Origin: Spartobacteria bacterium
GTDB taxonomy: Bacteria; Verrucomicrobiota; Verrucomicrobiia; Chthoniobacterales; UBA6821
DNA length: 64,000 nt
Assembly: GCA_947471565.1 (NCBI GenBank)
Contig: CANIVT010000007.1
Coordinates: 6,909 to 70,908 of the forward strand
Reading direction: 5' to 3'
The translations under genes and the position numbers were made by a program. The notes below the pieces were generated by a model. The model had not been told where the DNA came from and did not search any database. It saw only the letters and a list, made by a program, of their open reading frames with translations. Positions within the stretch are counted from its first letter, which is position 1. Every line of letters starts with the position of its first letter. Below are positions 1-11,926 of this stretch, in pieces.

Positions 1-11
1 CACGGCAGGGA

Positions 12-26
12 GGACACAGAGCGTCC
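12..26. promoter_or_regulatory. GGAC-N7-GTCC inverted repeat, candidate WYL operator (copy 1)
   Basis: GGAC-ACAGAGC-GTCC; a second copy lies at 65-79, just upstream of the WYL ATG. Confidence 0.45.
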
Positions 27-44
27 CACCCCTTTCGAACCTTC

Positions 45-79
45 TTGAGTACGCACCGGAAGCAGGACATAACGGGTCC
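45..79 (+). promoter_or_regulatory. sigma70-type leaderless promoter of the WYL gene, overlapped by a GGAC-N7-GTCC site (65-79)
   Basis: TTGAGT(45-50)-N17-CATAAC(68-73)-6 nt-ATG(80). Confidence 0.6.
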
Positions 80-1108
80 ATGCCTCGCGTTTCCTCCAAG
101 CGGTCCGTCCGCCCTTCCAAGTCCTCAAAAGGCGGCCACGGCCGCTCGGCACGACTCCCCATGTTCCGGATCATGCAGATCCACGAGCGCCTCAAGGAGG
201 GGGGATTCCCCAATTGTCAGGCCCTCTCCGACGATCTCGAGGTCTCCTACAAGACAGTCCAGCGCGACATCGACTTCATGCGCGACCAGCTCCAGCTGCC
301 GATCGAATACGACAGCGTCCGCCACGGGTTCCTCTACACACGCGAGGTGAAGAACCTCCCCGCCATGGCGCTTCAGGAGGGGGAAGTCATCGCCCTGCTG
401 GTCGCCCAGCGTGCCGCCGAGCAGTACCGCGGCACACCCTTTGAGAAATCGCTCCGCAACGCCTTCACCAGGCTCATCGAGAGTCTCCCCTCCAAGTCTG
501 AAATCTCCCTCAAGGACCTCAGCGAGGCCGTCTCCTTCCGCCCGCCAGGACCTCCCGCCGAGGATCTGGAGTGTTTCCAGACCCTCTCCAACGCCCTCCT
601 GAAGTCTCAGGAGATCGAGTTCCGCTACCGCAAGCCCGGTGACGGCACAGGAGCCATCCGCCGGGTTCAGCCCTACCACCTCGGCTGCATCGGCGGGATC
701 TGGTACCTCATCGGTCTCGATCTCGGACGCAATGCCCTGCGCACCTTCGCCCTCGCACGCATCGCAGCACCCGCCAACCTCAACCGCCGCTTCACCCGTC
801 CGAAGGACTTTTCACTCGACGACATGCTCAGCGACAGCTTCTCGGCCTTCGAGACAAGGAACGCCCAGCAGGTCCGCATCTTCCTGGACCCGCTCGCCGC
901 GTCACTGACCTCGGAGCGCAAATGGCACCCCTCCCAGAAGATCACCTTCCGGAAGGATGGCTCTGCTGAGTTGACCATGAAGGTCGGCCTCGCCCCCGAC
1001 CTGGAGGCTTGGATCATGGGATGGGGCCCCAGAGCCAAGGTGCTCGCGCCTGTCGCCCTACGCAACCGGATTGCAGCATCCCTTCAGAAGGCCGCGATGC
1101 AGTATTGA
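80..1108 (+). CDS. WYL-domain transcriptional regulator (wHTH-WYL-WCX, PafB/PafC-like)
   Basis: 342 aa; HTH LSDDLEVSYKTVQRDIDFMR; WYL core RRVQPYHL..WYLIG..RTFALARI; C-terminal WIMGWGPRAKVLAP. Confidence 0.93.
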   Translation: MPRVSSKRSVRPSKSSKGGHGRSARLPMFRIMQIHERLKEGGFPNCQALSDDLEVSYKTVQRDIDFMRDQLQLPIEYDSVRHGFLYTREVKNLPAMALQEGEVIALLVAQRAAEQYRGTPFEKSLRNAFTRLIESLPSKSEISLKDLSEAVSFRPPGPPAEDLECFQTLSNALLKSQEIEFRYRKPGDGTGAIRRVQPYHLGCIGGIWYLIGLDLGRNALRTFALARIAAPANLNRRFTRPKDFSLDDMLSDSFSAFETRNAQQVRIFLDPLAASLTSERKWHPSQKITFRKDGSAELTMKVGLAPDLEAWIMGWGPRAKVLAPVALRNRIAASLQKAAMQY

Positions 1109-1110
1109 GA
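953..1110 (+). repeat. 158-bp direct repeat, copy 1 (3' end of the WYL gene)
   Basis: matches 2199-2356 with 3 mismatches, all synonymous. Confidence 0.95.
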
Positions 1111-1117
1111 GGCGTCT

Positions 1118-1294
1118 TCAACGCCCAACAATTTTTGCAATCCTCGCTGAAATCTCGCTCCCCGGGATCCCCTCGACAGCATCCGATCGAATCTCGGCGA
1201 CACGCTCGGCAACCACGTCCTTCCAAGCGGATTCGATACCGAGCTCAATGAATTGCTGCAGGGAATGAGTCTGTCTGTCCATGAGTTCCTCCAT
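1118..1294 (-). pseudogene. remnant of an addiction-module antitoxin (TIGR02574-like), 58 aa, not in the ORF track
   Basis: hand translation ..IESAWKDVVAERVAEIRSDAVEGIPGSEISARIAKIVGR*; N-terminus degenerate; no toxin partner. Confidence 0.6.
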
Positions 1295-1327
1295 TTGCTG
1301 AACTTTAAGTCAAAGCTGGGAGCTTTC

Positions 1328-1954
1328 TCACCGTGAGGCGGCAATGATTTCCCTCCTCACATCGATGTCCCGTCCGAAAAGACGCTGCCACAGCAACCGG
1401 GTGTTCGTGATCGGATCACCGGGAGCCGACTCGTCATAAGCCGGCTTATAGAGATGCACTGCACGGATCAGCGAATCCACCAACTCGTCCTCGGTGGGAT
1501 GGCCAGTTCGTGAAATCACCTCCTCGAATGCCTCAAAGTCCTTCTCCTCACCACGGCTGATCTTGGAAACAAGGATATCGATCGGATGTGGGAAAAGTAC
1601 ATCCAGAGCCTCAAGACGCTCGACATGAGCGCGCATCCGCCAGTCGAGGGCTGTACGGAATGTCCCTAGCGGACAAACTTCCACATACGGCGAACTCAAG
1701 CCCTTGGTAAGACCAGCCTCCTTTAAAAATGCCTCGATGCTCTCATCGGACGCAATGTCCAAATCTCCGCTCATGATAGCGTTGGAAATACCCATCTGAA
1801 GTGGGGAAGAACCAAAGACGACAACCTGAAGATGTTTAAACCCAGGCTCCTTGGAGAGCACACCCGCAGCCTGCCTCAACAGTTGAGCACCCGGAGTGCT
1901 CCAGTCGAGTTCAGGAAACCACCTTGCCCTGTGCCACGGTTCGCTCACGCTCAT
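1328..1954 (-). CDS. DUF6036/AbiEii-like nucleotidyltransferase (putative TA toxin)
   Basis: FGSSPL..SGDLDI (GS..DxD) and HPIDILVSKISRGEEKD motifs; start MSVSEPW chosen. Confidence 0.7.
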   Translation of the reverse strand: MSVSEPWHRARWFPELDWSTPGAQLLRQAAGVLSKEPGFKHLQVVVFGSSPLQMGISNAIMSGDLDIASDESIEAFLKEAGLTKGLSSPYVEVCPLGTFRTALDWRMRAHVERLEALDVLFPHPIDILVSKISRGEEKDFEAFEEVISRTGHPTEDELVDSLIRAVHLYKPAYDESAPGDPITNTRLLWQRLFGRDIDVRREIIAASR

Positions 1955-2141
1955 AATCCAGCCCCTTGTAGGCACAAAGGCAGGCCAAAGCTTGATCCAG
2001 CAATCTCGGAGTCACCGAGGGATCCCTTTCCAGCTTTCCGACCAATGCCTCCCAGCGACTACCCAGACGCCTTCCTTTCGTCAGGACAACCGACTTCCTC
2101 CAGCTAGGGCTGGCTGAAATCTTGGACGGATTAATCTTCAT
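1911..2141 (-). CDS. small hypothetical protein, probable partner of the DUF6036 gene
   Basis: 76 aa; overlaps the downstream gene; TTGAAT exactly 35 nt upstream of the ATG. Confidence 0.55.
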   Translation of the reverse strand: MKINPSKISASPSWRKSVVLTKGRRLGSRWEALVGKLERDPSVTPRLLDQALACLCAYKGLDYERERTVAQGKVVS

Positions 2142-2198
2142 GCCTACCCAATCCTCCAAAACCATGCCACATTCAAGCTAATCCCGTCACATCAGGAC

Positions 2199-2356
2199 AA
2201 GGATGGCTCCGCTGAGTTGACCATGAAGGTCGGCCTCGCCCCCGACCTGGAGGCTTGGATCATGGGATGGGGCCCCAGAGCCAAGGTGCTCGCGCCTGTC
2301 GCCCTCCGCAACCGGATTGCAGCATCCCTTCAGAAGGCCGCGATGCAGTACTGAGA
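2199..2356 (+). repeat. 158-bp direct repeat, copy 2 (orphan WYL 3' end, KDGSAE...AAMQY*)
   Basis: 155/158 identical to 953-1110. Confidence 0.95.
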
Positions 2357-2368
2357 AAGTTCCTATCC

Positions 2369-2400
2369 CCCTCGACTCCCGTACAGCCGAATGTCTCGCG
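2369..2400 (+). repeat. 32-bp imperfect direct repeat, copy 1
   Basis: ccctcgactcccgtacagccgaatgtctcgcg; 29/32 identical to 3229-3260. Confidence 0.85.
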
Positions 2401-2465
2401 CGGAGGGGCAGAGATCGCTGAGGAATAAAAGACAGACCGGACCACATTGGCTTCGCCAACAAAGC

Positions 2466-2907
2466 TCAGGCAGGAGCTAAAGTAGCGCGGATTTTCAGAT
2501 CCGTTGCGACAATGAAGCCCTTGGTCCATGAGCGCGCCTCCTCCATGGCGAAGAGTGCAGATATCCTCTCCTCAAGGGCACGCCTTGAAGGGTCGCGCAT
2601 CCTGATCAGCAGGATCCCATGATGCGTTCCGGGAGCGAATTTACGGATATCGGAGAAATCCAGATCTTGGGTGATCAGGAAGCGTCCATCCATTTGGGCT
2701 CTTTCCCAGACGATCGCATCGGGTTTGCCATTGACCCCTTCATCCTCAACTGTGTCGGTTTCATGGCCAAGCCGCGACAGAATCCCCACCAGGGTGGCAG
2801 GCAAGTTTTGTATGCTGCTCTCCCCCGAGAGAAGCACCCTTCGGGTCTGGCTTCGCCAGCTACAACTCAGCCTACCTTGGCCTCGTTTCATCCAGCTTGA
2901 TCCTCAC
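2466..2907 (-). pseudogene. DUF5615 PIN-like toxin interrupted by a 79-bp insertion
   Basis: GTG at 2907 gives MRIKLDE, then the insert (2808-2886), then NLPATLVGILSRLGH..LITQDLDFSD; the original frame hits TAG inside the insert. Confidence 0.8.
2808..2886. mobile_element. 79-bp palindrome-rich insertion (REP/MITE-like), possible 3-bp TTT target duplication
   Basis: splits the conserved LDE/NL motif; hairpins CCC-TTC-GGG, CTGGC-TTC-GCCAG and TCTC-CCCC-GAGA. Confidence 0.6.
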
Positions 2908-3143
2908 GCCGCTACCGGGACGGGTGGCAAGGGAAGATCCTCCTCGGCTGAGGAAGCAGCATAGGCAATCACAGCCCGAATAGCCTCATAGGAAAGGGTC
3001 GGAAATGCCTTGAGGATCTCCTCGATGGAGTCTCCCTCTGCAAGCGATGCCAGAACGGTACGCAGAGTCACCCTGGTTCCCCGGATCACGGGTTGTCCCC
3101 CGCAGATCAACTTGTCGGAAACAATGTAATCCTTGAATGACAT
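2904..3143 (-). CDS. DUF433 family antitoxin
   Basis: ICGGQPVIRGTRVTLRTVLASLAEGDSIEEILKAFPTL; stop overlaps the toxin GTG. Confidence 0.92.
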   Translation of the reverse strand: MSFKDYIVSDKLICGGQPVIRGTRVTLRTVLASLAEGDSIEEILKAFPTLSYEAIRAVIAYAASSAEEDLPLPPVPVAA

Positions 3144-3228
3144 GGCTCACCAATACCCCCGGGACTACCGGCAGTCAACATGCACAAAACAAGGGAGATG
3201 CGCGCGAACTGCCCTCATTGACACTGGT

Positions 3229-3260
3229 CCCTCGACTCCCGTTCAGCCCAATGTCACGCG
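3229..3260 (+). repeat. 32-bp imperfect direct repeat, copy 2
   Basis: ccctcgactcccgttcagcccaatgtcacgcg. Confidence 0.85.
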
Positions 3261-3282
3261 TTGATCGAGGAGAGATTCAATC

Positions 3283-3336
3283 CATCTCCCATCTCCTAGC
3301 TCCCCCCTAACAGCCTTCAGTCTAAAAGCCTATTTT
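3283..3336 (+). repeat. heptamer-like intergenic repeat (CCTAACAGCCTTCAG family)
   Basis: reverse complement aaaataggcttttagactgaaggctgttagg matches 11930-12000 and 10441-10545. Confidence 0.75.
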
Positions 3337-3346
3337 GGTACCCATG

Positions 3347-3405
3347 GGACACTCAGCGACCTAGCCGGTCGGTATCATTGTGGGCAACGGGGACACCGAG
3401 TTTCC
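3347..3405. promoter_or_regulatory. two imperfect GGAC-N7-GTCC sites upstream of the vWA gene
   Basis: GGAC-ACTCAGC-GACC (3347-3361) and GGAC-ACCGAGT-TTCC (3391-3405). Confidence 0.35.
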
Positions 3406-3427
3406 GACACACCACCACCTCATCCCC

Positions 3428-4114
3428 ATGACCGAACACAATCCCGCCACAAACAAACTCACTGAAATCGCCTTCATCCTCGACCAGTCGGGTTCCATGG
3501 AATCCATCAAACAGGGTACCATTGAGGGTTTTAATGCGTTCCTCTCCCAGCAACAGGAGGAGAATGACAAGTATCCGGCCCTCTTTTCGCTTACCCTTTT
3601 CAATGCCGGCATCAACGAAGTCATCACTTCGGAACCGGTGGCGAAGGTCTCTACTCTGGACTCCCACAACTACAGACCTTCGGGTGGAACGGCCCTTCTC
3701 GATGCCATCGGACTCACCATCGACAGCCTCGGCAAGCGCCTGGCAGAGACACCTGAACCCGATCGCCCCGCGAAGGTCATTGTGGCCATCATGACCGATG
3801 GCGAGGAGAACTCCTCCAGACAGTTCACCTGGACTCAGGTCAGTGACAAGATCAAGCACCAGAGTGAGGTCTACAAGTGGGAGTTCCTCTTCATGGGAGC
3901 CAACCAGGATGCGATTGCGACGGCCTCGCGGATCAGCATTGATCGCGATAGTGGAGTGAACTACTTCCAACAGGACGGCAGCGCCAGGAAAGTACTCCGC
4001 GCCATGAGTGCCTCGGTCCAATACAGCAAGCGGGCACCCAGGCCACAATGGTCTAAACCATCGTTGCAGGAGATCATGGCCGAGGAAGAGGCCAAGGATC
4101 AGTCCAAGCAGTAA
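3428..4114 (+). CDS. vWA-domain (MIDAS) protein
   Basis: ILDQSGSM, GGTALLDAIG, IMTDGEENSS, FLFMGAN. Confidence 0.9.
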   Translation: MTEHNPATNKLTEIAFILDQSGSMESIKQGTIEGFNAFLSQQQEENDKYPALFSLTLFNAGINEVITSEPVAKVSTLDSHNYRPSGGTALLDAIGLTIDSLGKRLAETPEPDRPAKVIVAIMTDGEENSSRQFTWTQVSDKIKHQSEVYKWEFLFMGANQDAIATASRISIDRDSGVNYFQQDGSARKVLRAMSASVQYSKRAPRPQWSKPSLQEIMAEEEAKDQSKQ

Positions 4115-4129
4115 CCCCTGAAATCCATG

Positions 4130-4165
4130 CCGGGTGATTCCTTCGATGGGGTCACCCGGTTTTTT
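4130..4165 (+). terminator. intrinsic terminator
   Basis: CCGGGTGATTCC/GGGGTCACCCGG stem followed by a T run. Confidence 0.85.
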
Positions 4166-4288
4166 CTGCCCAACTTCAAAAAAAGCCCAAAAAAAACCCT
4201 TGAGGAGGCTCCGGATTGACCCTTGTCGGGAGAACGGCGTAGTAAGGCAGGACTTTTTCAACTCATTGGTATCGGATACCGTGATCTC

Positions 4289-4957
4289 ATGTGCGGCCGT
4301 TTTGTCCGGAAAGGTGAATCGAAGAAGGTTGCTGAGGCCTTAGGGGTCCAAGACGGCGAGGAGAACTGGACGGAAAGCTACAACGTGGCTCCCGGATCCA
4401 CTGTTCCGATCGTCAGGGATGACCCTACTGGCCGGCATATGGCCCCCGCCGTCTGGGGATTCACATCTTCGGGCAGGGGTCCTCTGTTCAATGCCAGAGC
4501 TGAGACCGTTGATAGCCTTCCCAGCTTCCGCGACCACCTACGAGTGAACCGATGCCTGGTCCCCGCCAGTGGCTTTTACGAGTGGAGACCCAGTGATCGT
4601 CAGCCCTTCTACTTCGAGAGGGTGGATGGGCTTCCTCTGGCCTTTGCCGGGATCTGGAAACGAGTCGGCGATCACCTCGAGGCCACGGTCATCACCACCA
4701 CTCCCAACCGCGACATGTCTGCCATCCACGACAGGATGCCGGTGATCCTCTCTTCGGACAGGTGGAGCAATTGGCTCAATCCGGATCCCCTGTCATCAGC
4801 TGAGTCACAGAGTCTCCTGTGCCCGTCACCGGATGGCACCCTGACTCGTTGGCCTGTGAGCAGAGCTGTGGGGAGCATCAGGAACGACACTCAGGGATTG
4901 ATTGAACGGGTGGAGCCACAACCGACGGCTCAGGAGTTGTTTCCCATGTCCTCCTAG
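4289..4957 (+). CDS. SOS response-associated peptidase (SRAP, YedK/HMCES family)
   Basis: N-terminal MCGRF, SYNVAPG, LFNARAET, CLVPASGFYEW, HDRMPVIL. Confidence 0.95.
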   Translation: MCGRFVRKGESKKVAEALGVQDGEENWTESYNVAPGSTVPIVRDDPTGRHMAPAVWGFTSSGRGPLFNARAETVDSLPSFRDHLRVNRCLVPASGFYEWRPSDRQPFYFERVDGLPLAFAGIWKRVGDHLEATVITTTPNRDMSAIHDRMPVILSSDRWSNWLNPDPLSSAESQSLLCPSPDGTLTRWPVSRAVGSIRNDTQGLIERVEPQPTAQELFPMSS

Positions 4958-5073
4958 TGGATCGGAGTTGTTTGGAAACTCTCTCCTCATTTGACTCCAT
5001 GAGCCACCTTCCAATCTCTTTCATAATTTACATTTCCTAGACATTTATAAATATTTGAATAGGTTTTGCAATC

Positions 5074-5664
5074 ATGCCCTTGGTCCTTTCCAAGCTACTC
5101 AAGAAATCGCCGATCCACCGAACGAGCGAACTGGAGTCCCTTGGGCTCTCGCGTCCCCGTCTCAAACTTCTGGTGAAGCAGGGACTCCTAGAGAAGGCGA
5201 GTCGGGGTCTCTACGTGCTCACGGATTCCGGTGCCAGCGAGCATCGGGCCCTTGCGGAGGTTTCCAAACGGATCCCCCACGGGATCATCTGCCTCCTCTC
5301 CGCCCTGCGCTTCCACGACCTTACCACCCAATCCCCCCACGAGGTCTGGGTGGCTCTGGAACGCTCTGCTTGGACTCCCAGGATGGATCATCTCGATCTG
5401 CGGATCGTCCGCTTTTCCGGAGCTTCACTCCACAAAGGCCATGACCGGCATCTCATCGAAGGAGTGCCGGTCCTTGTGACCAACCCCGCCAAGACCGTTG
5501 CCGACTGCTTCAAGTACCGCAACAAGATCGGGGTCGAGGTGGCACTGGAAGCCCTCCGGGAAGTCTGGAACAAACGCCTCTGCACCATGTCCGAGCTGAT
5601 GCACTATGCTCGGATCTGTCGGGTCTCCAACGTCATGAAGCCCTATCTGGAGAGCGTTGCATGA
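5074..5664 (+). CDS. abiEi: type IV TA AbiEi family antitoxin
   Basis: RGLY, GIICLLSALRFHDLTTQSPHEVW, PAKTVADCFKYRNKIG. Confidence 0.9.
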   Translation: MPLVLSKLLKKSPIHRTSELESLGLSRPRLKLLVKQGLLEKASRGLYVLTDSGASEHRALAEVSKRIPHGIICLLSALRFHDLTTQSPHEVWVALERSAWTPRMDHLDLRIVRFSGASLHKGHDRHLIEGVPVLVTNPAKTVADCFKYRNKIGVEVALEALREVWNKRLCTMSELMHYARICRVSNVMKPYLESVA

Positions 5665-6071
5665 GCGATCATTCCATCGCCAATCTTGCGGCCTCGGTAC
5701 GCCAACGACTCCTCAACCTCAGCCGCACCAAGAAAGAACCCTTTGACCGCATTCTCTCCCGCTATGCCGTTGAGCGGCTCCTCTACCGTCTCAGCCGTTC
5801 CAGCTATCGAGACCGGTTTTTTCTCAAGGGCGCGATGCTTTTCTCGCTTTGGTTTGAGGAGATGCACCGTCCTACCCGCGACGTTGACCTGCTCGGCCAC
5901 GGCGATGATGACGAACCCGCCCTTGAACGGATCTTTGGAGAACTTTGTGATCTGGATGTTGAGCCCGATGGATTGGTCTTTCACGATGACTCTGTCCAAG
6001 CGGAGCGCATCAGGGAAGCAGCCGCCTACACAGGCATCCGAGTCACCCTCCTTGCTCCATCCGGAATTTGA
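5661..6071 (+). pseudogene. abiEii: AbiEii nucleotidyltransferase toxin, C-terminally truncated
   Basis: ERLLYRLS, FFLKGAML, RPTRDVDLL; only 136 aa against about 300 expected; ends at a junction with an antisense HigA fragment. Confidence 0.85.
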
Positions 6072-6252
6072 TCGCCTCCACGGGATCAGGAATGTCCATG
6101 GGGAAGTTTTCCTCCTCATAGCGCTCCACGAGCAGCGCCCACAGCTCCAGCTCCTCCTCCTCTGGCGAACCGGGAGCGGCATCCACTAGCTTCTCGATAC
6201 GGGTGAGCGCACCGGCGAGTTCCTTCCTGTTCTTGATGATCTTGGGTTTCAT
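6043..6252 (-). pseudogene. HigA-like antitoxin, truncated before its HTH; no cognate toxin
   Basis: ELELWALLVERYEEENFPMDIPDPVEAIKFRMEQ then an immediate stop. Confidence 0.8.
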
Positions 6253-6260
6253 GGCTCTGA

Positions 6261-6755
6261 TCAGATTTCGCCAGCCTCCCTAAGAAATTCACGTTCAAGC
6301 AGAGGCGAGATGAAGAAGCCTGCTTTCGATCGCAAGGACATCACTTCCTCGCCTAAGTTGGCAATCACACCCTCTCTCCTTGCTTTTAAAAGAATGCCCA
6401 AAGTTCCCACAACGGGAACATTCAGATTTCTTGCGACTCTTCTTCCCTCGAGTTCATCTATGATTAGACGGCTTGGAGAACATTCGAGCGAGAGAGCAAT
6501 TGCCTCAGCCTCACCCACATCCAGAGTAAGCGATAAGGTGGCGGCCAAGCCTTTGTCTTTACACCGCACGATTCTAAGCCATCCATCCCGTGTTGCCTCA
6601 TCAATGGACTTTTTTGCGGCGGGGTCTTCGATCCGCTCAAGTTCCCCATGAACCCCCTCGGGGATCGACACATCCCCAAACTGTTGTTTTAGCAGATCCA
6701 GTCGCCCGATGATGGCGAGAGCCGATATCGGCGAGGTGTCACTGACCGCCGGCAT
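6261..6755 (-). CDS. DUF3368 PIN-like protein
   Basis: VSDTSPI..L, LDVGEAEAIAL, LIIDELEGRRVA, GTLGILLKA. Confidence 0.9.
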   Translation of the reverse strand: MPAVSDTSPISALAIIGRLDLLKQQFGDVSIPEGVHGELERIEDPAAKKSIDEATRDGWLRIVRCKDKGLAATLSLTLDVGEAEAIALSLECSPSRLIIDELEGRRVARNLNVPVVGTLGILLKARREGVIANLGEEVMSLRSKAGFFISPLLEREFLREAGEI

Positions 6756-6993
6756 AAGCGAGATCCTCATTCACCTCGGCAGAGCCGTAGTGACGGGGAA
6801 TCCCCCGCTCGGAGAGAGCCAAACCGAACCGATCCTGACTCATTCCGGCAAGTTCGGCGGCCTTGCCGAACGCAAGCAACTCCCTCTGATACAGCGTCGA
6901 GGCAAGCTCCAACATCACCCTGCCGCGAAGCTCGGGCTCCGGCAGCTTCAATGCCCTCTCAATCTCATCAGGCATCTCGATCATCACAGACAT
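6739..6993 (-). CDS. UPF0175 family protein (partner of DUF3368)
   Basis: LYQRELLAFGKAAELAGMSQDRF..LSERGIP; promoter TTGCGG-N17-TATGCT-6 nt-ATG. Confidence 0.88.
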   Translation of the reverse strand: MSVMIEMPDEIERALKLPEPELRGRVMLELASTLYQRELLAFGKAAELAGMSQDRFGLALSERGIPRHYGSAEVNEDLAYAGGQ

Positions 6994-7161
6994 AAGGTCA
7001 GCATACTGACGGCACCCTAATTCCGCAAGGGGGTTGATCTCAGGCGACCGTCACCTCAGTGGTTACTGCCCCTAGTGGTTACGCTGCATCCGAGTCGAGC
7101 TCGGACTACCTTCGGGAGGATGAAGCCTCGATCCGGAGTTGTTTTGAGAACCCGTCGGGGC

Positions 7162-8133
7162 CTACCGAAACAACTCCAGCTGGTTTCCTCCCCCCAGGGC
7201 GAGGGCATCGATTCCCAGGGCACGAAGGTCGCCGGCAAACTCCTCGGTGAAGCCGTGCACCGTGAAGACCTTCTTGGCACCTGTCTCCTCCACATGCTCG
7301 ATGAGTTCCCCGTGATCCGCATGATCTGACAGGGGGAAAGCCGCATCACACCGGTTGCGATAGATGGCGCTTGAGTCCATGGCCCAGCCACTGATCACGG
7401 CACTGCGGCTCTTCTCAACCTTCTGGCCAGAGAGCCGGGTGTTCGGCGGAATGATCAGCACCTTCCCTGTATGGTTCTTGCCGTCCCAGAGGGTGTACTT
7501 ACCGAGATCGACTCCGTGCTTCCCGTAGACAGCACTCATCACGCCCACGGAACGATGAACCGCCACCTCCATCGCTGATCCGGCGAGGATAGCGAGGAGT
7601 TCCTGGGATTTCCCCAGAGAATAGGCGAGCAGGATTGGTGTCACCCCCTCCGAGAGGGACTGCCTGCAAAAATTCAGGATCTCCTCCCTAACCCGCTCCA
7701 CGGGAGGAAAGGCGTAGCGAAGGTGGCCGAAGGTGCATTCCATCACGAGCGTCCCGGCCTTTGCCGAGGCTGCCTCCTCGCAGGTCAGGCTCTCCCGACG
7801 CTTGAAGTCCCCCGTGTAGAGCAGCCTCCCCTCCTCCGTTTCCACGAGCACCTGCGCCGAGCCGAGGATGTGACCCGCCGGAAGGAGGGTGATCCTCGCC
7901 CTATCCGTGCAGTAGGTTTCCCCGTAATCCAATTCGATCAGGGTGCATCCCGATGGAACAGGCTTCCTGGCCTTCATGAGATCAATCGTGGCAAAGCTCG
8001 CGATCGTGACCGTGTGCCACCCCGCATGATCACTGTGAGCATGGGAGACCACGGCAAGCGGCACCTTGCGCCTGGGATCCAGCCTCAGATCGCATCCGGG
8101 AAGGTGGATGCCGTTCCCCAGCCGTACGTCCAT
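7162..8133 (-). CDS. MBL-fold exonuclease (ligase-associated DNA damage response exonuclease-like)
   Basis: SHAHSDH, AGHILGSA, YTGDF, LVMECTFG, LSDHAD. Confidence 0.88.
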   Translation of the reverse strand: MDVRLGNGIHLPGCDLRLDPRRKVPLAVVSHAHSDHAGWHTVTIASFATIDLMKARKPVPSGCTLIELDYGETYCTDRARITLLPAGHILGSAQVLVETEEGRLLYTGDFKRRESLTCEEAASAKAGTLVMECTFGHLRYAFPPVERVREEILNFCRQSLSEGVTPILLAYSLGKSQELLAILAGSAMEVAVHRSVGVMSAVYGKHGVDLGKYTLWDGKNHTGKVLIIPPNTRLSGQKVEKSRSAVISGWAMDSSAIYRNRCDAAFPLSDHADHGELIEHVEETGAKKVFTVHGFTEEFAGDLRALGIDALALGGGNQLELFR

Positions 8134-8146
8134 GGCTAAAAAGCTA

Positions 8147-9064
8147 TTATCCACAGAAGACATTTCTTCTGTGCCATCCGAGATGTTCTTCGGACGGACG
8201 GAGCATCACCCCATCTAGAAAGTGTAATGGCGCACCGTTCCGAGACTTCAGCCAAGACGCCTCAGGACCCCACTCTGTGAAAACCGTAGGTGCGACACAG
8301 ACACGCTTACTCTCATCAACTGTCCATAGTCCTTCATCAAACATCCAATGCGCATCACGGGTTAGAGCAAGCCCGTTATCGGGATTGTCATTCCGGCTCT
8401 TTGAGAATGCGTGGACATGTGCAGCCTCCACAAGAGTCGCCCCTTTGGAGGTATGGCATCCATAACCAGTGAGAGCGCATGAAAATCTATATTGCGTGAC
8501 CACGACGATCCGGAACCGTGCATCTCTGCCTTTAGACTGATACTCTTGGGAATCTTCCCGCAATTTAAACGCAGCCTTCTGGGCCTCGGCCTTGCCAATG
8601 CCCATGGCTGCAAGTAATCCCTGCTGCTCATGATCAGGAAACCAGCTACGAATAAGTATAAACCTAGCAAGACGCCTAAACGAAGCATCTTGGAGGATCT
8701 CAAAGAAATCCCTGTTGAAACGAACTGATGTTGTAGTATCTGCGGAGTTACTCACTTTTCTATCCAGCCGGAGAGGATCCCAGAAGCCCTGACTTCCTAG
8801 ATGATGAAAAGGAAGATCTAAGCCAGGCCGTCCACCCCACCGCGATTGCACAAGGGACCAATACGAGTCAAACCTTAGACGAAGCTCAGGAGATTTTCCC
8901 AGATTTTGATTTGCTAACTCAGAACTATCTGCCAAATCCAGAATGCATAGCAAAAGGAGGGGTTTGTGAGGGGCAAATCGAGCATTCCCGTTGCCCCTGG
9001 AATTACTAACGTTAGGGCGAAGCTTTTGTAGACGCCCTAACCATAGCTGCTGATTTGCATTCAT
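8147..9064 (-). CDS. HNH endonuclease with an SBD-like N-terminus (putative type IV restriction enzyme)
   Basis: PHKPLLLL..LPFHHL N-domain; EAAHV..DNGLALTRDAHWMFDEG HNH; looks AT-richer than the flanks. Confidence 0.82.
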   Translation of the reverse strand: MNANQQLWLGRLQKLRPNVSNSRGNGNARFAPHKPLLLLCILDLADSSELANQNLGKSPELRLRFDSYWSLVQSRWGGRPGLDLPFHHLGSQGFWDPLRLDRKVSNSADTTTSVRFNRDFFEILQDASFRRLARFILIRSWFPDHEQQGLLAAMGIGKAEAQKAAFKLREDSQEYQSKGRDARFRIVVVTQYRFSCALTGYGCHTSKGATLVEAAHVHAFSKSRNDNPDNGLALTRDAHWMFDEGLWTVDESKRVCVAPTVFTEWGPEASWLKSRNGAPLHFLDGVMLRPSEEHLGWHRRNVFCG

Positions 9065-9129
9065 TAGTACATTCTTTGCAGTAATTTGGTTGTCCAAGAA
9101 CACTTATCTTGCATGTGTGTTTTTATTAC

Positions 9130-9216
9130 GAGACTCGGGAGATCGGATGGAGAGCAAGGCGTGAGAGCGAAGCTGTAGTGAACTACTGCGAGCGAACGAC
9201 AACACAGCTATCCGCC
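9130..9216 (+). repeat. ~87-bp structured dispersed repeat, copy 1
   Basis: 37/50 identity to 12105-12154; shared GGATGGAGAGC and GTAG-loop-CTAC stem. Confidence 0.8.
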
Positions 9217-9737
9217 GATATCCCGAGTCTAACTGATTTGGCCCATTGGAGGGAGCTTTTCACCACCTTCCCCTCTCTATTCACGGTCCCCCTGATCTCC
9301 TGAAGAAGCCCTCTGTATTCTCCAAGAATCCTCAGCGCATCCTCGCCCATCGCCCTTCCCTCAAAGAGCTCCCGGGGTCTTGACTGGAAATCCAATCCGG
9401 CCTGCACGTCCCGAGACATCAGGGGGACTCCCAGGTCAGCATTAGAGAGGAGTAATCTGCGATCCAGATCTACCTCCACAGAGCACCCCTCTATCAGGGA
9501 TAACTCCCCTCCCCCTAGGTCGAGATGGAGGATGGAAATCATCTTCCGCTCCAGATCCCAAAGATCACCGAGCTTCTCCTCAGAGACGCCGAGATTCCGT
9601 AGATCACGAATCTTCCTCAGGAAGGCCTCGTAGCACTCGGGGTACTGCTCAAGAACAGGGAGACCGAACCTTTTACGCATCCTGCTGATCCAGAGGACGG
9701 GGCGGCCGAGCTTTTCTGACAGTTCAGATAGGGTCAT
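9183..9737 (-). CDS. hypothetical protein (N-terminus possibly HTH-like)
   Basis: 184-aa ORF; its 5' end recurs as a diverged copy at 10390-10445. Confidence 0.7.
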   Translation of the reverse strand: MTLSELSEKLGRPVLWISRMRKRFGLPVLEQYPECYEAFLRKIRDLRNLGVSEEKLGDLWDLERKMISILHLDLGGGELSLIEGCSVEVDLDRRLLLSNADLGVPLMSRDVQAGLDFQSRPRELFEGRAMGEDALRILGEYRGLLQEIRGTVNREGKVVKSSLQWAKSVRLGISADSCVVVRSQ

Positions 9738-9747
9738 TGAGGGAGGC
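9692..9747 (-). repeat. 56-bp direct repeat, copy A (5' end of the 9183-9737 gene)
   Basis: 46/56 identical to 10390-10445. Confidence 0.88.
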
Positions 9748-9776
9748 GCTGGCAGCGCGGTTAAAAAGTGAAACGT

Positions 9777-9876
9777 TGGAAGGTTACAAGGTAAGAACCA
9801 GATCCGTGAGTTTGGAATCCTACAACCTCACCTGGGTCACCAAGTGTCCTAGGGAAGCGCTGGAAGGTTACAAGGT
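9777..9876 (+). repeat. two exact 16-mers TGGAAGGTTACAAGGT
   Basis: at 9777-9792 and 9861-9876. Confidence 0.8.
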
Positions 9877-9934
9877 GGGGCTGAAATACCCTGTTCACCT
9901 TGATTTCAGTGTCATCTAATCGTAATGTCGCACA

Positions 9935-10132
9935 ATGAGTATTCAGGAAATCGAAACCGCTGTGGCGAATCTCTCGCCTGAGGAGCTTTCCGTCTTCTCC
10001 GGATGGTTTGAGGAGTTCGTCGCGGACCAGTGGGACCGTCAGATCGAGCGTGATGCGGCGGCCGGGCGCCTGAATGAAGTACTGGAACAGGCCAAACAAC
10101 ATCGGGAAGCGGGTCGCTGTATCCAGCTTTGA
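9935..10132 (+). CDS. putative antitoxin
   Basis: MSIQEIETAVANLSPEEL..WDRQIERDAAAGRL; promoter TTGATT-N17-TAATGT-6 nt-ATG. Confidence 0.8.
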   Translation: MSIQEIETAVANLSPEELSVFSGWFEEFVADQWDRQIERDAAAGRLNEVLEQAKQHREAGRCIQL

Positions 10133-10389
10133 ACCACTACGCCGACCCGGATTTCTGGGAAGCCTATAACAGGCTTCCCGACGTTGTTCGCGAACTTGCT
10201 GATAAGAACTTTGCCCTACTGAAGTCCGATCCCTCGCATCCCTCCCTTCGACTGAAGAGGATCGGGCCGCTCCATTCGGTGCGGGTGGGACTTCACTACC
10301 GTGCACTGGCCTCGGATCACCCAGATGGTCTGCAATGGTTCTGGATCGGTCACCACGCCGACTACGACCGCCTAATCTCCGGGAAATAG
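10129..10389 (+). CDS. RelE/ParE/HigB-like toxin
   Basis: FWEAYNRLP..LLKSDPSHPSL..SVRVGLHYRALA..WFWIGHHADYDRL; TTG start overlaps the upstream stop. Confidence 0.82.
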   Translation: MNHYADPDFWEAYNRLPDVVRELADKNFALLKSDPSHPSLRLKRIGPLHSVRVGLHYRALASDHPDGLQWFWIGHHADYDRLISGK

Positions 10390-10445
10390 AGAGTACGGGG
10401 CGGCCTAGTCGTTCTGAGAGATCTGAAAGGATCATTGAGGGAGGC
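10390..10445 (-). repeat. 56-bp direct repeat, copy B (orphan gene start MILSDLSERLGRPVL)
   Basis: diverged copy of MTLSELSEKLGRPVL. Confidence 0.88.
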
Positions 10446-10545
10446 TGTTGGGGAAGGCTGTTGGGGAAGGCTGTTAGGCTGAAGGCTCTTTGGCTGAAGG
10501 CTGAAGGCTGAAGGCTGTTAGGAGAAACTGAAGGGGAGATGGCAA
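10441..10545 (+). repeat. tandem AGGCTGA/AGGCTGTT heptamer-type repeats
   Basis: gaggctgttggggaaggctgtt...ggctgaaggctgaaggctgaaggctgttagg. Confidence 0.9.
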
Positions 10546-10608
10546 CTAGGAGTTGAGGTCGAGCGTGCCGAAGTTGACGGGGGCTGGATGTAGTAGTAGG
10601 GGTGAAAG

Positions 10609-10824
10609 ATGACTGTCGCTGAGCTCCGCCTGCTGCCATCGGCTGAAAAGCTGAAGATCATTGAAGCCCTCTGGGGTGATCTGGCTGCGGATAGCGACTC
10701 CTTTGAAAGCCCCTCCTGGCATGGTGAGGAACTCCTCAAGACGGAGGTCGCACTGACGTCAGGCACAGTTGAGGTCTTGGATTGGCAGGCTGCCAAGAAG
10801 GAGCTTCGGGCCAGATTTGAATGA
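10609..10824 (+). CDS. addiction-module antitoxin (TIGR02574-like)
   Basis: LPSAEKLKIIEALWGDL..SPSWHGEEL..DWQAAKKELR. Confidence 0.88.
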   Translation: MTVAELRLLPSAEKLKIIEALWGDLAADSDSFESPSWHGEELLKTEVALTSGTVEVLDWQAAKKELRARFE

Positions 10825-11120
10825 GGATCAAGATTCTGAGGTCAGCCCTTGAGGATCTGGCCACAGCAAGGGAGTTCTACGACAGCCAATCCGATGGGAT
10901 TGGAGACTATTTTTTCGATTCTCTTTTCTCCGAGATTGATTCCCTGACTTTGTACGCAGGGATCCATCCGCTCAGATTCGGATACCACCGGATGGTGGTG
11001 CAGAGATTCCCCTACTGCATCTACTATCGCATCTCGGATGAGGTGGCGACGGTGTTCCGGGTGCTCGATGCCCGCAGGAATCCCTCCTGGATCAGAAGAA
11101 GTCTGAGTGAACAACGCTGA
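10821..11120 (+). CDS. RelE/ParE family toxin
   Basis: ALEDLATAREFY..FPYCIYYRI..VFRVLDARRNP. Confidence 0.9.
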   Translation: MRIKILRSALEDLATAREFYDSQSDGIGDYFFDSLFSEIDSLTLYAGIHPLRFGYHRMVVQRFPYCIYYRISDEVATVFRVLDARRNPSWIRRSLSEQR

Positions 11121-11140
11121 GCAGGTCGTCGACGCGCTCA

Positions 11141-11926
11141 TTACTCTCCCTTGGCGAGTCGCGCAGCGTTGTGCGCCGGAAGGCCGGCTTTCTTGAACCG
11201 GGCCCGGGCTTTGCCGATGTCGTAGCTCACACGGCGCATGAGCAGGAGCCGCTGCTCGTAATCGTAGAGTGCGTAGGAGGCGCGTGGGTCGCCATCGCGA
11301 GACTGTCCCACCGAGCCAACATTGACGGTGTAGCGTTTGGAGGGATCCAGGAGGATGGGCTTCTCTCCGGGGGTGAGGCATCGGACGCCGAAGGTCTCCG
11401 GGTTCTCCTCCCAGATGCCGGGAACATGAGTATGTCCGTTGAAGCTGATGAAAGTGCTCTGGGCGGCGAAGTGGGCCTCGGCCTCCGTGGTCTCATGGAT
11501 GTAGTGAAACTCCGGTGGCTCGTTCAGCGAAGCGTGGGACAGGGTGATGGGATCGAGATTCACGGTGATGGGGAGATCCCTGAGCCAGCCAAGCTCGGCT
11601 TTGCTGACCTGCTCCTTGGCGATCTGCAGCGGTTTGCGGACAGGCACATCCCAGTCCTCCTCGAGGATCTTGTCCGCCAGCAGCAGCATGGCCTCGTGGT
11701 TACCCAGAACGGTGACTGCACAGAGGTCCATTACTTTCCTCACGCATGCTCCGGGCTCCGGTCCGTATCCGACGATGTCGCCCAGACAGAGGATCCCCCT
11801 GACCGGAAAGTCACGGAGATCCGCCAGGACCGCCTCGAGGGCGTCGAGGTTGGCATGGATGTCACTGATGAGGGCGAAGAAGTTATGGGTTGGGGTGGTT
11901 GTTTTGGCTTTTTGGGGTATGGGCAT
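11141..11926 (-). CDS. calcineurin-like metallophosphoesterase
   Basis: ISDIHAN, LGDIVGYG, LGNHE, GHTH, NVGSVGQSRDGDPRA. Confidence 0.93.
   Translation of the reverse strand: MPIPQKAKTTTPTHNFFALISDIHANLDALEAVLADLRDFPVRGILCLGDIVGYGPEPGACVRKVMDLCAVTVLGNHEAMLLLADKILEEDWDVPVRKPLQIAKEQVSKAELGWLRDLPITVNLDPITLSHASLNEPPEFHYIHETTEAEAHFAAQSTFISFNGHTHVPGIWEENPETFGVRCLTPGEKPILLDPSKRYTVNVGSVGQSRDGDPRASYALYDYEQRLLLMRRVSYDIGKARARFKKAGLPAHNAARLAKGE

What the first reader, a model, noticed from the sequence alone, without database searches (positions are those of the whole stretch)
45..10611. Six genes share an exact leaderless promoter geometry
A TTG-initiated hexamer begins exactly 35 nt before the ATG in six cases: WYL (TTGAGT 45 / ATG 80), DUF6036 partner (TTGAAT 2176 / 2141), DUF433 (TTGACT 3178 / 3143), UPF0175 (TTGCGG 7028 / 6993), the 9935 antitoxin (TTGATT 9900) and the 10609 antitoxin (TTGACG 10574). 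With a 17-nt spacer the -10 boxes are CATAAC, GATTGG, TATTGG, TATGCT, TAATGT and TAGGGG, each 6 nt from the ATG, so the start site falls on or next to the A of ATG. The layout was not seen at lexA, the M42 peptidase, vWA, SRAP or the phosphoesterase. Leaderless design makes each cassette a self-contained portable unit and may keep antitoxins translated under stress.
Basis: partly seen in the sequence, partly recalled or inferred. Interest (0 to 1): 0.62.

Follow-up and report, generated by a model that had tools for sequence, protein, structure and literature searches.

The report
Leaderless promoters on toxin-antitoxin genes
In this lake verrucomicrobium the promoters of most toxin-antitoxin gene pairs sit directly against the start codon, so the mRNA probably has no leader; this layout is known from Mycobacterium tuberculosis and is here a genome-wide habit that is strongly concentrated on antitoxin genes.

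Summary
Individually they are weak. Only three score as decent sigma70-type promoters: 9935, UPF0175 and DUF433. WYL and 10609 are marginal. The DUF6036 partner is doubtful, because it has a GGAGG upstream and an alternative start.

Genome-wide, full -35/-10 promoters peak sharply with the -10 box starting 12 nt before the start codon (62-66 genes against about 6 at other distances). Shine-Dalgarno signal is almost absent. About 7% of genes show the layout, including adk, dnaE, ruvC, pyrG and hisF.

It is about eight-fold enriched on antitoxin genes: 22 of 28 against 96 of 1020 other operon-leading genes (p = 4.5e-17). TTG at exactly -35 occurs in 13 of 28 against 3.2% of all genes.

The same habit appears in relatives of the same family, order and class. 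It is only a small peak in an SD-using class of the phylum.

One VapBC family is leaderless in Verrucomicrobiota, Acidobacteriota and Alphaproteobacteria (43 of 48 loci). In Betaproteobacteria (0 of 22) it carries a roughly 20-nt leader, with a Shine-Dalgarno core in 15 of 22.

This matches published findings: 32 of 37 M. tuberculosis TA pairs are leaderless, and 10% of Akkermansia start sites are.

The parts
45..1108 (+). WYL/WCX/HTH regulator gene (ATG 80) with TTGAGT 45-50 and CATAAC 68-73; possible leaderless promoter, weak
   Evidence: Pfam. Promoter score 5.5 bits. About 10 of 28 homologues in the phylum score 5.5 bits or more at their apparent start, one with the same CATAAC box, but the closest same-order homologues are weak.
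1118..1331 (-).
   Evidence: PF09720 hit at C7:8059-8193. Score 8.9 bits.
1328..2176 (-). DUF6036 nucleotidyltransferase (1328-1975) and its upstream partner ORF (start 2141 or 2165) with TTGAAT 2176-2171 and GATTGG 2153-2148; doubtful case
   Evidence: Pfam. Start 2141 scores 1.8 bits and has GGAGG 12 nt upstream. Start 2165 scores 6.5 bits, with TTGAAT then serving as the -10 box. No usable homologues were found to fix the start.
2466..3178 (-). DUF433 antitoxin-like gene (2904-3143) plus DUF5615 partner (2466-2891); TTGACT 3178-3173, 17 nt, TATTGG 3155-3150, 6 nt, ATG 3143
   Evidence: Pfam. Score 7.2 bits with no SD. Four of the five DUF433 genes in the genome score 7.2-8.8 bits at offset 12.
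4255..4957 (+).
   Evidence: Score 6.4 bits. The start is set by the Cys2 that follows the ATG (read directly from the sequence).
5038..5664 (+). 196-aa gene that I read as AbiEi-like (not scanned against Pfam here) (ATG 5074) with TAGACA 5038-5043, 16 nt, TAGGTT 5060-5065, 8 nt, ATG
   Evidence: Score 8.4 bits. An alternative TTTACA-17-AATATT site at 5027-5055 would give a leader of about 12 nt.
6261..7028 (-). UPF0175 antitoxin (6739-6993) plus DUF3368 PIN-like toxin (6261-6770); TTGCGG 7028-7023, 17 nt, TATGCT 7005-7000, 6 nt, ATG 6993; inverted repeat GTCAG-N4-CTGAC (7010-6997) lies over the -10 box
   Evidence: Pfam. Score 8.0 bits. Inverted repeat.
9881..10389 (+). 65-aa antitoxin (9935-10132) plus ParE-like toxin (10129-10389, 4-nt overlap); TTGATT 9900-9905, 17 nt, TAATGT 9923-9928, 6 nt, ATG 9935; inverted repeat CTGAAAT-N15-ATTTCAG overlaps the -35 box
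   Evidence: Pfam. Score 11.2 bits, the best of the six. Inverted repeat.
10574..11120 (+). Unstab_antitox antitoxin (10609-10824) plus 99-aa toxin-like gene (10821-11120, ATGA overlap); TTGACG 10574-10579, 17 nt, TAGGGG 10597-10602, 6 nt, ATG 10609
   Evidence: Pfam. Own score is only 4.3 bits. However, 18 of 29 homologues in the phylum, and 10 of 12 in the same class, score 6 bits or more at the aligned Met1.

Best explanation
The six sites are instances of the organism's ordinary housekeeping (sigma70/RpoD-type) promoter: TTGACA-like box, 16-18 nt spacer (17 the mode), then a TANNNT-like box. The promoter is placed so that six or seven bases separate the -10 box from the start codon. Transcription would then begin on, or one base before, the A of ATG. 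The mRNA would have no 5' leader and no Shine-Dalgarno site, and would be translated by direct recognition of its 5'-terminal AUG.

This is a lineage-wide habit of SD-poor Verrucomicrobiae, affecting about 7% of genes here. Type II toxin-antitoxin operons use it almost by default, at about 80%. In those operons:
- the antitoxin is the leaderless first gene;
- operator inverted repeats overlap the -35 or -10 box, which would allow autorepression;
- the toxin gene follows by overlap or coupling.

Shown here: the motif positions, their genome-wide and TA-specific enrichment, and their conservation in relatives and across phyla. Inferred: the actual start sites, leaderless translation, and autoregulation.
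For: Genome-wide position signal.
- TANNNT peaks at offset 12 (61 against about 12) and TTG at 34-38. The SD signal is barely above background.
- The logo of starts with TANNNT at -12 shows T at 53% and 57% at -35/-34, against a 20% background.
- Full promoters of 6 bits or more peak at -10 offset 12 (62-66 against about 6), with an excess of about 130 genes.
- Housekeeping genes are included.

TA enrichment.
- 22 of 28 against 96 of 1020, Fisher p = 4.5e-17.
- In 24 of 28 TA operons the best promoter within 90 nt lies at offsets 11-15. Shuffles give 2.6%.

Comparative evidence.
- Homologues of the VapB antitoxins found elsewhere in this genome (80 loci; none of the six window genes is a VapB) keep a TTGACA-like -35 box, about 17 nt, a TAGCAT-like -10 box and 6-7 nt before the ATG in 26 of 29 Verrucomicrobiota, 14 of 16 Acidobacteriota and 3 of 3 Alphaproteobacteria. 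Their conserved MRTTL N-termini fix the start codon.
- Relatives of the same family, order and class show the same peak.

Published start-site mapping.
- 10% of Akkermansia muciniphila start sites are leaderless, against 0.4% in E. coli (PMC4782308).
- 32 of 37 M. tuberculosis TA pairs are leaderless (PMC3898074).
- GeneMarkS-2 'group C' genomes have the Pribnow box 6-8 nt from the start (PMC6028130).
Against: - No transcription start site was measured for this organism.
- Individually the six promoters are weak. None passes a strict 9-of-12 consensus scan.
- CATAAC, GATTGG and TAGGGG lack the conserved final T.
- The partner gene has a GGAGG upstream and an ambiguous start.
- Gene starts genome-wide come from my own crude gene finder, and taking the best of several candidate starts inflates scores somewhat. 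The same procedure was applied to both classes.
- Promoter and operator signals cannot be separated by sequence alone.
Confidence: 0.78

Rival explanations
1. The layout is a special design feature of mobile TA cassettes: a self-contained unit that carries its own leaderless expression signal wherever it goes, independent of the host.
For: - TA genes are eight-fold enriched.
- In the VapBC tree the leaderless state needs only 3 changes while the host group changes 15 times.
- Within the leaderless clade, Verrucomicrobiota, Acidobacteriota, Alphaproteobacteria and a spirochaete are intermixed.
Against: - About 100 non-TA genes, including core housekeeping genes, have the same layout.
- Relatives show it genome-wide.
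- 0 of 22 Betaproteobacterial VapB homologues are leaderless. Among the 26 Betaproteobacterial and unclassified proteobacterial loci, 17 have a good promoter with its -10 box starting 29-42 nt upstream, and 15 of the 22 Betaproteobacterial loci carry a 4-6-nt Shine-Dalgarno core (GGAG/GAGG/AGGA up to AGGAGG) within 20 nt of the start.
- SD-led Unstab_antitox homologues occur in other classes of the phylum.
Confidence: 0.25
2. The six cases are coincidence plus selective choice of start codons. The real promoters lie upstream and the mRNAs have ordinary leaders.
For: - Three of the six -10 boxes are poor.
- The strict scan finds 3 sites against 3.6 expected, and none of them is one of the six.
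- The start is ambiguous for the partner gene, and the N-terminus of WYL is variable.
Against: - TTG at exactly -35 occurs in 13 of 28 against 3.2%.
- TA operons have no promoter of 8 bits or more outside offsets 10-15.
- The geometry is conserved in 43 of 48 non-Betaproteobacterial VapB loci with a fixed MRTTL start.
Confidence: 0.07
3. The conserved boxes are mainly antitoxin operators, not promoter elements, and their fixed distance to the ATG reflects operator architecture.
For: - GATGC repeats and a GATGC..GCATC palindrome embrace the TAGCAT box in the VapB family.
- Inverted repeats overlap the -10 box of UPF0175 and the -35 box of 9935.
Against: - The same offset-12 peak is seen at about 100 unrelated non-TA genes with unrelated flanking sequence.
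- In Betaproteobacteria the same TAGCATCA box moves about 20 nt upstream together with its -35 partner while the ATG keeps an SD. That is the behaviour of a promoter.
- Operator and promoter overlap is the norm in type II TA systems, so the two readings are not exclusive.
Confidence: 0.1

Closest known systems
Leaderless toxin-antitoxin operons of Mycobacterium tuberculosis (Cortes et al. 2013, PMC3898074)
   Same: TA modules are overwhelmingly leaderless (32 of 37 mapped pairs there; 22-24 of 28 predicted here) in a genome where a sizeable minority of all genes is leaderless. The -10 box lies 6-7 nt from the start codon.
   Different: The phylum differs (Verrucomicrobiota against Actinobacteria). 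Here a clear -35 TTGACA box with a 17-nt spacer accompanies the -10 box. The evidence here is sequence statistics only, with no start-site mapping.
Leaderless transcripts of Akkermansia muciniphila seen by Cappable-seq (Ettwiller et al. 2016, PMC4782308)
   Same: A verrucomicrobium (I take it to be in the same class, which the coded taxonomy handles did not let me check) with an SD-scarce genome (PMC10783764). About 10% of its start sites fall on annotated start codons, similar to my estimate of about 7% of genes here.
   Different: That study did not look at TA genes or at promoter geometry by gene class. It concerns a gut species, not a lake one.
GeneMarkS-2 'group C' genomes (Lomsadze et al. 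2018, PMC6028130)
   Same: A Pribnow box at a fixed 6-8 nt from the start of first-in-operon genes, used as a gene-start signal.
   Different: The paper's text names mainly Actinobacteria and Deinococcus-Thermus in group C. The words Verrucomicrobia and Acidobacteria do not occur in its main text.
Autoregulated type II TA promoters (for example VapBC and Phd/YefM operators)
   Same: The antitoxin gene comes first, the toxin overlaps or is coupled, and palindromic operators overlap the -35 or -10 box.
   Different: From my own recollection, not checked here, the classical E. coli examples (relBE, mazEF, yefM-yoeB) have leaders with SD sites. Here the leader is absent.

Membership tests
Bacterial leaderless genes (promoter abutting the start codon) | -10 (Pribnow) box ending 6-8 nt before the start codon, far more often than at other distances | tested here: met
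   Genome-wide peak at -10 offset 12 (62-66 against about 6). All six sites have 6 nt between the box and the ATG.
Bacterial leaderless genes (promoter abutting the start codon) | No Shine-Dalgarno sequence before the start codon | tested here: met
   No 4-mer SD core within 20 nt for DUF433, UPF0175, 9935 and 10609. There is a chance AGGA at WYL. GGAGG is present before ATG 2141, so the feature is not met for that one.
Bacterial leaderless genes (promoter abutting the start codon) | 5'-terminal AUG start codon | tested here: met
   All six, and 27 of 28 TA first genes, start with ATG.
Bacterial leaderless genes (promoter abutting the start codon) | Mapped transcription start site at position 0-5 relative to the start codon | not testable with these tools
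The only experimental support is from Akkermansia (PMC4782308).
Type II toxin-antitoxin operons | Small antitoxin gene followed by an overlapping or closely coupled toxin gene of a known family | tested here: met
   DUF433/DUF5615, UPF0175/DUF3368, 65-aa ORF/ParE_like, Unstab_antitox/99-aa ORF, and partner/DUF6036. WYL is a lone regulator, not a TA pair.
Type II toxin-antitoxin operons | Operator repeats overlapping the promoter (autoregulation) | tested here: inconclusive
   Inverted repeats of 5 nt or more, with arms up to 15 nt apart, were found at UPF0175 and 9935 only. There is a clear GATGC operator in the VapB family. No binding data exist.
TA-enriched leaderless transcriptome (M. tuberculosis type) | Leaderless architecture significantly over-represented among TA modules relative to other operon-leading genes | tested here: met
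   79% against 9.4%, p = 4.5e-17. This is in silico only.

The most novel reading that the evidence does not exclude
The way a TA cassette starts translation acts as a compatibility filter for its horizontal spread. One and the same VapBC (and Unstab_antitox) family exists in two forms: a leaderless form and a form with a roughly 20-nt Shine-Dalgarno leader. The leaderless form circulates with its promoter intact among SD-poor or leaderless-tolerant phyla (Verrucomicrobiota, Acidobacteriota, some Alphaproteobacteria, a spirochaete). The SD-led form is confined to Betaproteobacteria. Switching between the forms is rare: 2-3 events on a 73-locus tree.
Probability: 0.3. Interest if true: 0.55.

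Novelty: new member of a known kind. Interest (0 to 1): 0.4.

Why it matters
- It gives a practical rule for finding true start codons and promoters in SD-poor Verrucomicrobiae: look for a -10 box starting 12-13 nt before an ATG.
- It extends the association between leaderless mRNAs and toxin-antitoxin modules from Actinobacteria to at least one more phylum. That suggests the association is a general property of TA biology in leaderless-tolerant hosts and not a mycobacterial peculiarity.
- The leaderless and SD-led forms of one VapBC family offer a clean natural experiment on how mobile genes adapt, or fail to adapt, to the host's way of starting translation.

Tried and rejected
- The strict consensus scan of 1-11400 found none of the six sites, and no more sites than shuffles give. 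The signal is positional, not a matter of consensus strength.
- A nine-sequence VapB alignment was too diverse for the search for related loci. A three-sequence alignment worked.
- The partner ORF 1911-2165 has no useful homologues in 300 genomes of the phylum, so the choice between starts 2141 and 2165 stays open.
- Fixing the WYL start by homology failed. Homologues align only from residue 7-28, so the N-terminus is variable. ATG 161 as an alternative start has no promoter (-9.7 bits).
- The 16S rRNA 3' end (anti-SD) was not found with one conserved-motif search of the 46 contigs, so I could not check whether CCUCC is retained.
- I rejected the idea that AT-rich TA islands inflate promoter scores. 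Composition-matched shuffles give 2.6% against 79% observed, and no TA promoter of 8 bits or more lies outside offsets 10-15.
- I rejected the reading that host adaptation is proven. The tree shows the leaderless state is essentially one clade, so the contrast with Betaproteobacteria may rest on one or two ancient events.


Full report
**1. The observation**

Reading the window confirms every coordinate. In all six cases a hexamer beginning with TTG starts 35 nt before an ATG.

Pfam confirms the gene identities:
- WYL/WCX/HTH regulator, 80-1108.
- DUF6036 nucleotidyltransferase, 1328-1975, with an unassigned upstream ORF.
- DUF433, 2904-3143, with DUF5615, 2466-2891.
- UPF0175, 6739-6993, with the DUF3368 PIN-like protein, 6261-6770.
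- An unassigned 65-aa ORF, 9935-10132, with a ParE-like toxin.
- Unstab_antitox, 10609-10824, with a 99-aa partner.

The quality of the boxes is uneven. I scored them with a log-odds model: E. coli-type TTGACA/TATAAT frequencies, spacer 16-18, and -10 box starting 11-15 nt before the start codon. The sites score:

| Site | Score (bits) |
|---|---|
| 9935 | 11.2 |
| UPF0175 | 8.0 |
| DUF433 | 7.2 |
| WYL | 5.5 |
| 10609 | 4.3 |
| ATG 2141 | 1.8 |

ATG 2141 also has a GGAGG 12 nt upstream, and there is an alternative in-frame ATG at 2165 that scores 6.5 bits. A strict consensus scanner finds none of the six, and finds no more sites in 1-11400 than in shuffles. The case therefore rests on position, not on consensus strength.

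**2. Is it more than chance?**

The window lies in a 2.28-Mb, 46-contig genome of 58.7% GC. Earlier notes call it a lake verrucomicrobium. I made a simple codon-usage gene set of about 1870 genes.
- Relative to the first ATG of each gene, TANNNT peaks at offset 12 (61 genes against about 12 elsewhere). TTG peaks at 34-38. The Shine-Dalgarno 4-mers barely rise above background.
- Among starts with TANNNT at -12, T reaches 53% and 57% at -35/-34 against 20% expected.
- Complete -35/-10 promoters of 6 bits or more show one sharp peak, with the -10 box starting 12 nt before the start codon (62-66 genes against about 6 at any other distance up to 120 nt). There are shoulders at 13-15. The excess is about 130 genes, or about 7%.
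- The list includes adk, dnaE, rpiB, proC, ruvC, hisF, gpmA, pyrG, rpmI, lpxA, aroK and mdh, recognised from their N-termini.

The geometry is therefore real, but it is the genome's commonest promoter position and not a peculiarity of six genes.

**3. Association with toxin-antitoxin genes**

I located TA loci independently of promoter information, by searching the whole genome with Pfam models:
- PIN, 14 hits.
- ParE, 3 hits.
- DUF433, 5 hits.
- PhdYeFM, 3 hits.
- Unstab_antitox, 4 hits.
- UPF0175, 1 hit.

Results for the 28 first genes of these operons:
- 22 score 8 bits or more and 24 score 6 bits or more.
- The comparison groups are 96 of 1020 other operon-leading genes (9.4%) and 28 of 819 internal genes (3.4%). 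Fisher p = 4.5e-17.
- The -35 box starts at 34-37 (mode 35), and the -10 box at 12 (13 cases) or 13 (9 cases).
- In TA operons no promoter of 8 bits or more lies outside -10 offsets 10-15. The best promoter within 90 nt is at 11-15 in 24 of 28. Composition-matched shuffles reach 8 bits in 2.6%.
- The chosen starts give the expected protein N-termini, for example MRTTL for the VapB type. This is independent support for the start codons.

- AbiEi, ATG 5074, 8.4 bits.
- The Unstab_antitox remnant, ATG 1294 on the minus strand, 8.9 bits.
- SRAP, ATG 4289, TTTTCA-16-TACCGT-6-ATG, 6.4 bits.

**4. Relatives and other phyla**

I sampled stretches of relatives' genomes and analysed them:

| Genome | Relation | Sample | Promoters at leaderless offset | Background | SD signal |
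|---|---|---|---|---|---|
| G216 (43% GC) | same family | 200 kb | TANNNT at offset 12: 15 | 3.7 | almost none |
| G005 | same order | 200 kb | offset 12: 4 | 0.4 | weak |
| G060 | same class | 400 kb | offsets 11-12: 18 | 1 per offset | almost none |
| G023 | another class of the phylum | 400 kb | small peak | - | strong (47 against 4) |

For the VapB antitoxin family, a scan of one genome per species returned 80 loci whose matches all begin at Met1.
- The layout is a TTGACA-like -35 box, about 17 nt, a TAGCAT-like -10 box, then 6-7 nt before the ATG, with GATGC operator repeats.
- It is present in 26 of 29 Verrucomicrobiota, 14 of 16 Acidobacteriota, 3 of 3 Alphaproteobacteria and 1 spirochaete.
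- It is present in 0 of 22 Betaproteobacteria.
- Among the 26 Betaproteobacterial and unclassified proteobacterial loci, 17 have a promoter of 7.8 bits or more, with its -10 box starting 29-42 nt upstream of the ATG. The TAGCATCA box is recognisable in many of them. This predicts a leader of 17-30 nt.
- A Shine-Dalgarno core of 4-6 nt (GGAG/GAGG/AGGA up to AGGAGG) lies within 20 nt of the start in 15 of the 22 Betaproteobacterial loci.

A VapB+VapC tree of 73 loci needs only 3 changes of the leaderless state but 15 changes of host group. Inside the leaderless clade the phyla are intermixed.

Homologues of the 10609 antitoxin behave alike. Ten of 12 in the same class score 6 bits or more at the aligned Met1, while several in other classes have AGGAG or GGAGG instead. 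This lends support to site 10609 despite its poor TAGGGG box.

For WYL, about 10 of 28 homologues have a plausible leaderless promoter, one of them TTGACA-18-CATAAC. The three closest do not, so WYL is only 'possible'. The partner ORF has no useful homologues.

**5. How it most likely works**

In standard numbering the -10 hexamer occupies -12 to -7, so six bases between it and the ATG put +1 on the A (established knowledge of sigma70 promoters). The transcript would begin with AUG, lack an SD, and be translated by the leaderless route.

In TA operons, inverted repeats overlap the -10 box of UPF0175 (GTCAG-N4-CTGAC) and the -35 box of 9935 (CTGAAAT-N15-ATTTCAG). GATGC repeats overlap the VapB promoters. 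This fits the usual autorepression by antitoxin. The toxin genes overlap the antitoxin stop (10129/10132, 10821/10824, 6770/6739) or follow closely (2891/2904).

Shown: positions, statistics and conservation. Inferred: the start sites, leaderless translation and repression.

**6. Comparison with what is known**

- In M. tuberculosis a quarter of genes are leaderless, and 32 of 37 TA pairs with a mapped primary start site are leaderless (PMC3898074; also PMC8485053).
- Cappable-seq of a mouse gut microbiome found 10% of Akkermansia muciniphila start sites on start codons, against 0.4% in E. coli (PMC4782308).
- Akkermansia and another verrucomicrobium are listed as SD-scarce (PMC10783764).
- GeneMarkS-2 defines 'group C' genomes by a Pribnow box 6-8 nt from the gene start (PMC6028130).

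Both halves of the finding are therefore known kinds: leaderless promoters in Verrucomicrobia, and TA modules being leaderless. What is new here:
- their combination in this phylum;
- the clear -35 component;
- the observation that one TA family exists in a leaderless and an SD-led form that sort by host lineage.

**7. Verdict**

- Novelty: a new member of a known kind.
- Interest is moderate, at 0.4.

Noticed in passing
genome-wide (G000); profile: Besides the main peak at -10 offset 12, there is a second distinct peak at offset 15 (38-43 genes against about 6), exactly one codon further away. It could be a 3-nt leader, or a start codon called one codon too late. Unexplained.
   Followed up: no
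window 10442-10522; also G000 C13 about 3070-3110: An array of GAAGGCT heptamers (also read as 13-15-nt units, 5-7 copies) lies directly upstream of the 10609 antitoxin promoter. A similar 'gctgaaggctgaaggg' run lies upstream of the VapB promoter at C13:3033.
   Followed up: partly
window 953-1110 and 2199-2356: A 158-bp direct duplication (98% identical) of the 3' end of the WYL gene brackets the DUF6036 cassette and the small Unstab_antitox-like ORF. It looks like a target-end duplication made by insertion of the cassette. Another first-reader note already flags it.
   Followed up: partly
L001-L080, 40 nt upstream of the VapB ATG: The VapB promoters carry a conserved operator-like pattern, GATGC-N3-GATGC-N2-TAGCATC-A-GATGC, that embraces the -10 box. 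It is recognisable in loci from Verrucomicrobiota, Acidobacteriota, Betaproteobacteria and a spirochaete.
   Followed up: partly
window 5661-6252: The nucleotidyltransferase gene that follows the AbiEi-like gene (which I read as AbiEii-like; neither gene was scanned against Pfam) is only 136 aa (5661-6071). It ends where a convergent small gene (6043-6252, minus strand), the last gene of the UPF0175-DUF3368 operon, begins. The toxin gene may have been truncated by insertion of that operon.
   Followed up: no
G216:C1:1-200000 (L111-L120): The genome labelled 'same family' as the window's genome has 42.6% GC against 58.7% here, an unusually large difference within one family. It still shows the same leaderless peak and lack of SD.
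   Followed up: no
L011 and L043 (VapB loci): Two loci keep the 'tcagatgcATG' junction but have lost the -35 box, or carry TAGCCT in place of TAGCAT. They may be decaying or differently driven copies.
   Followed up: no
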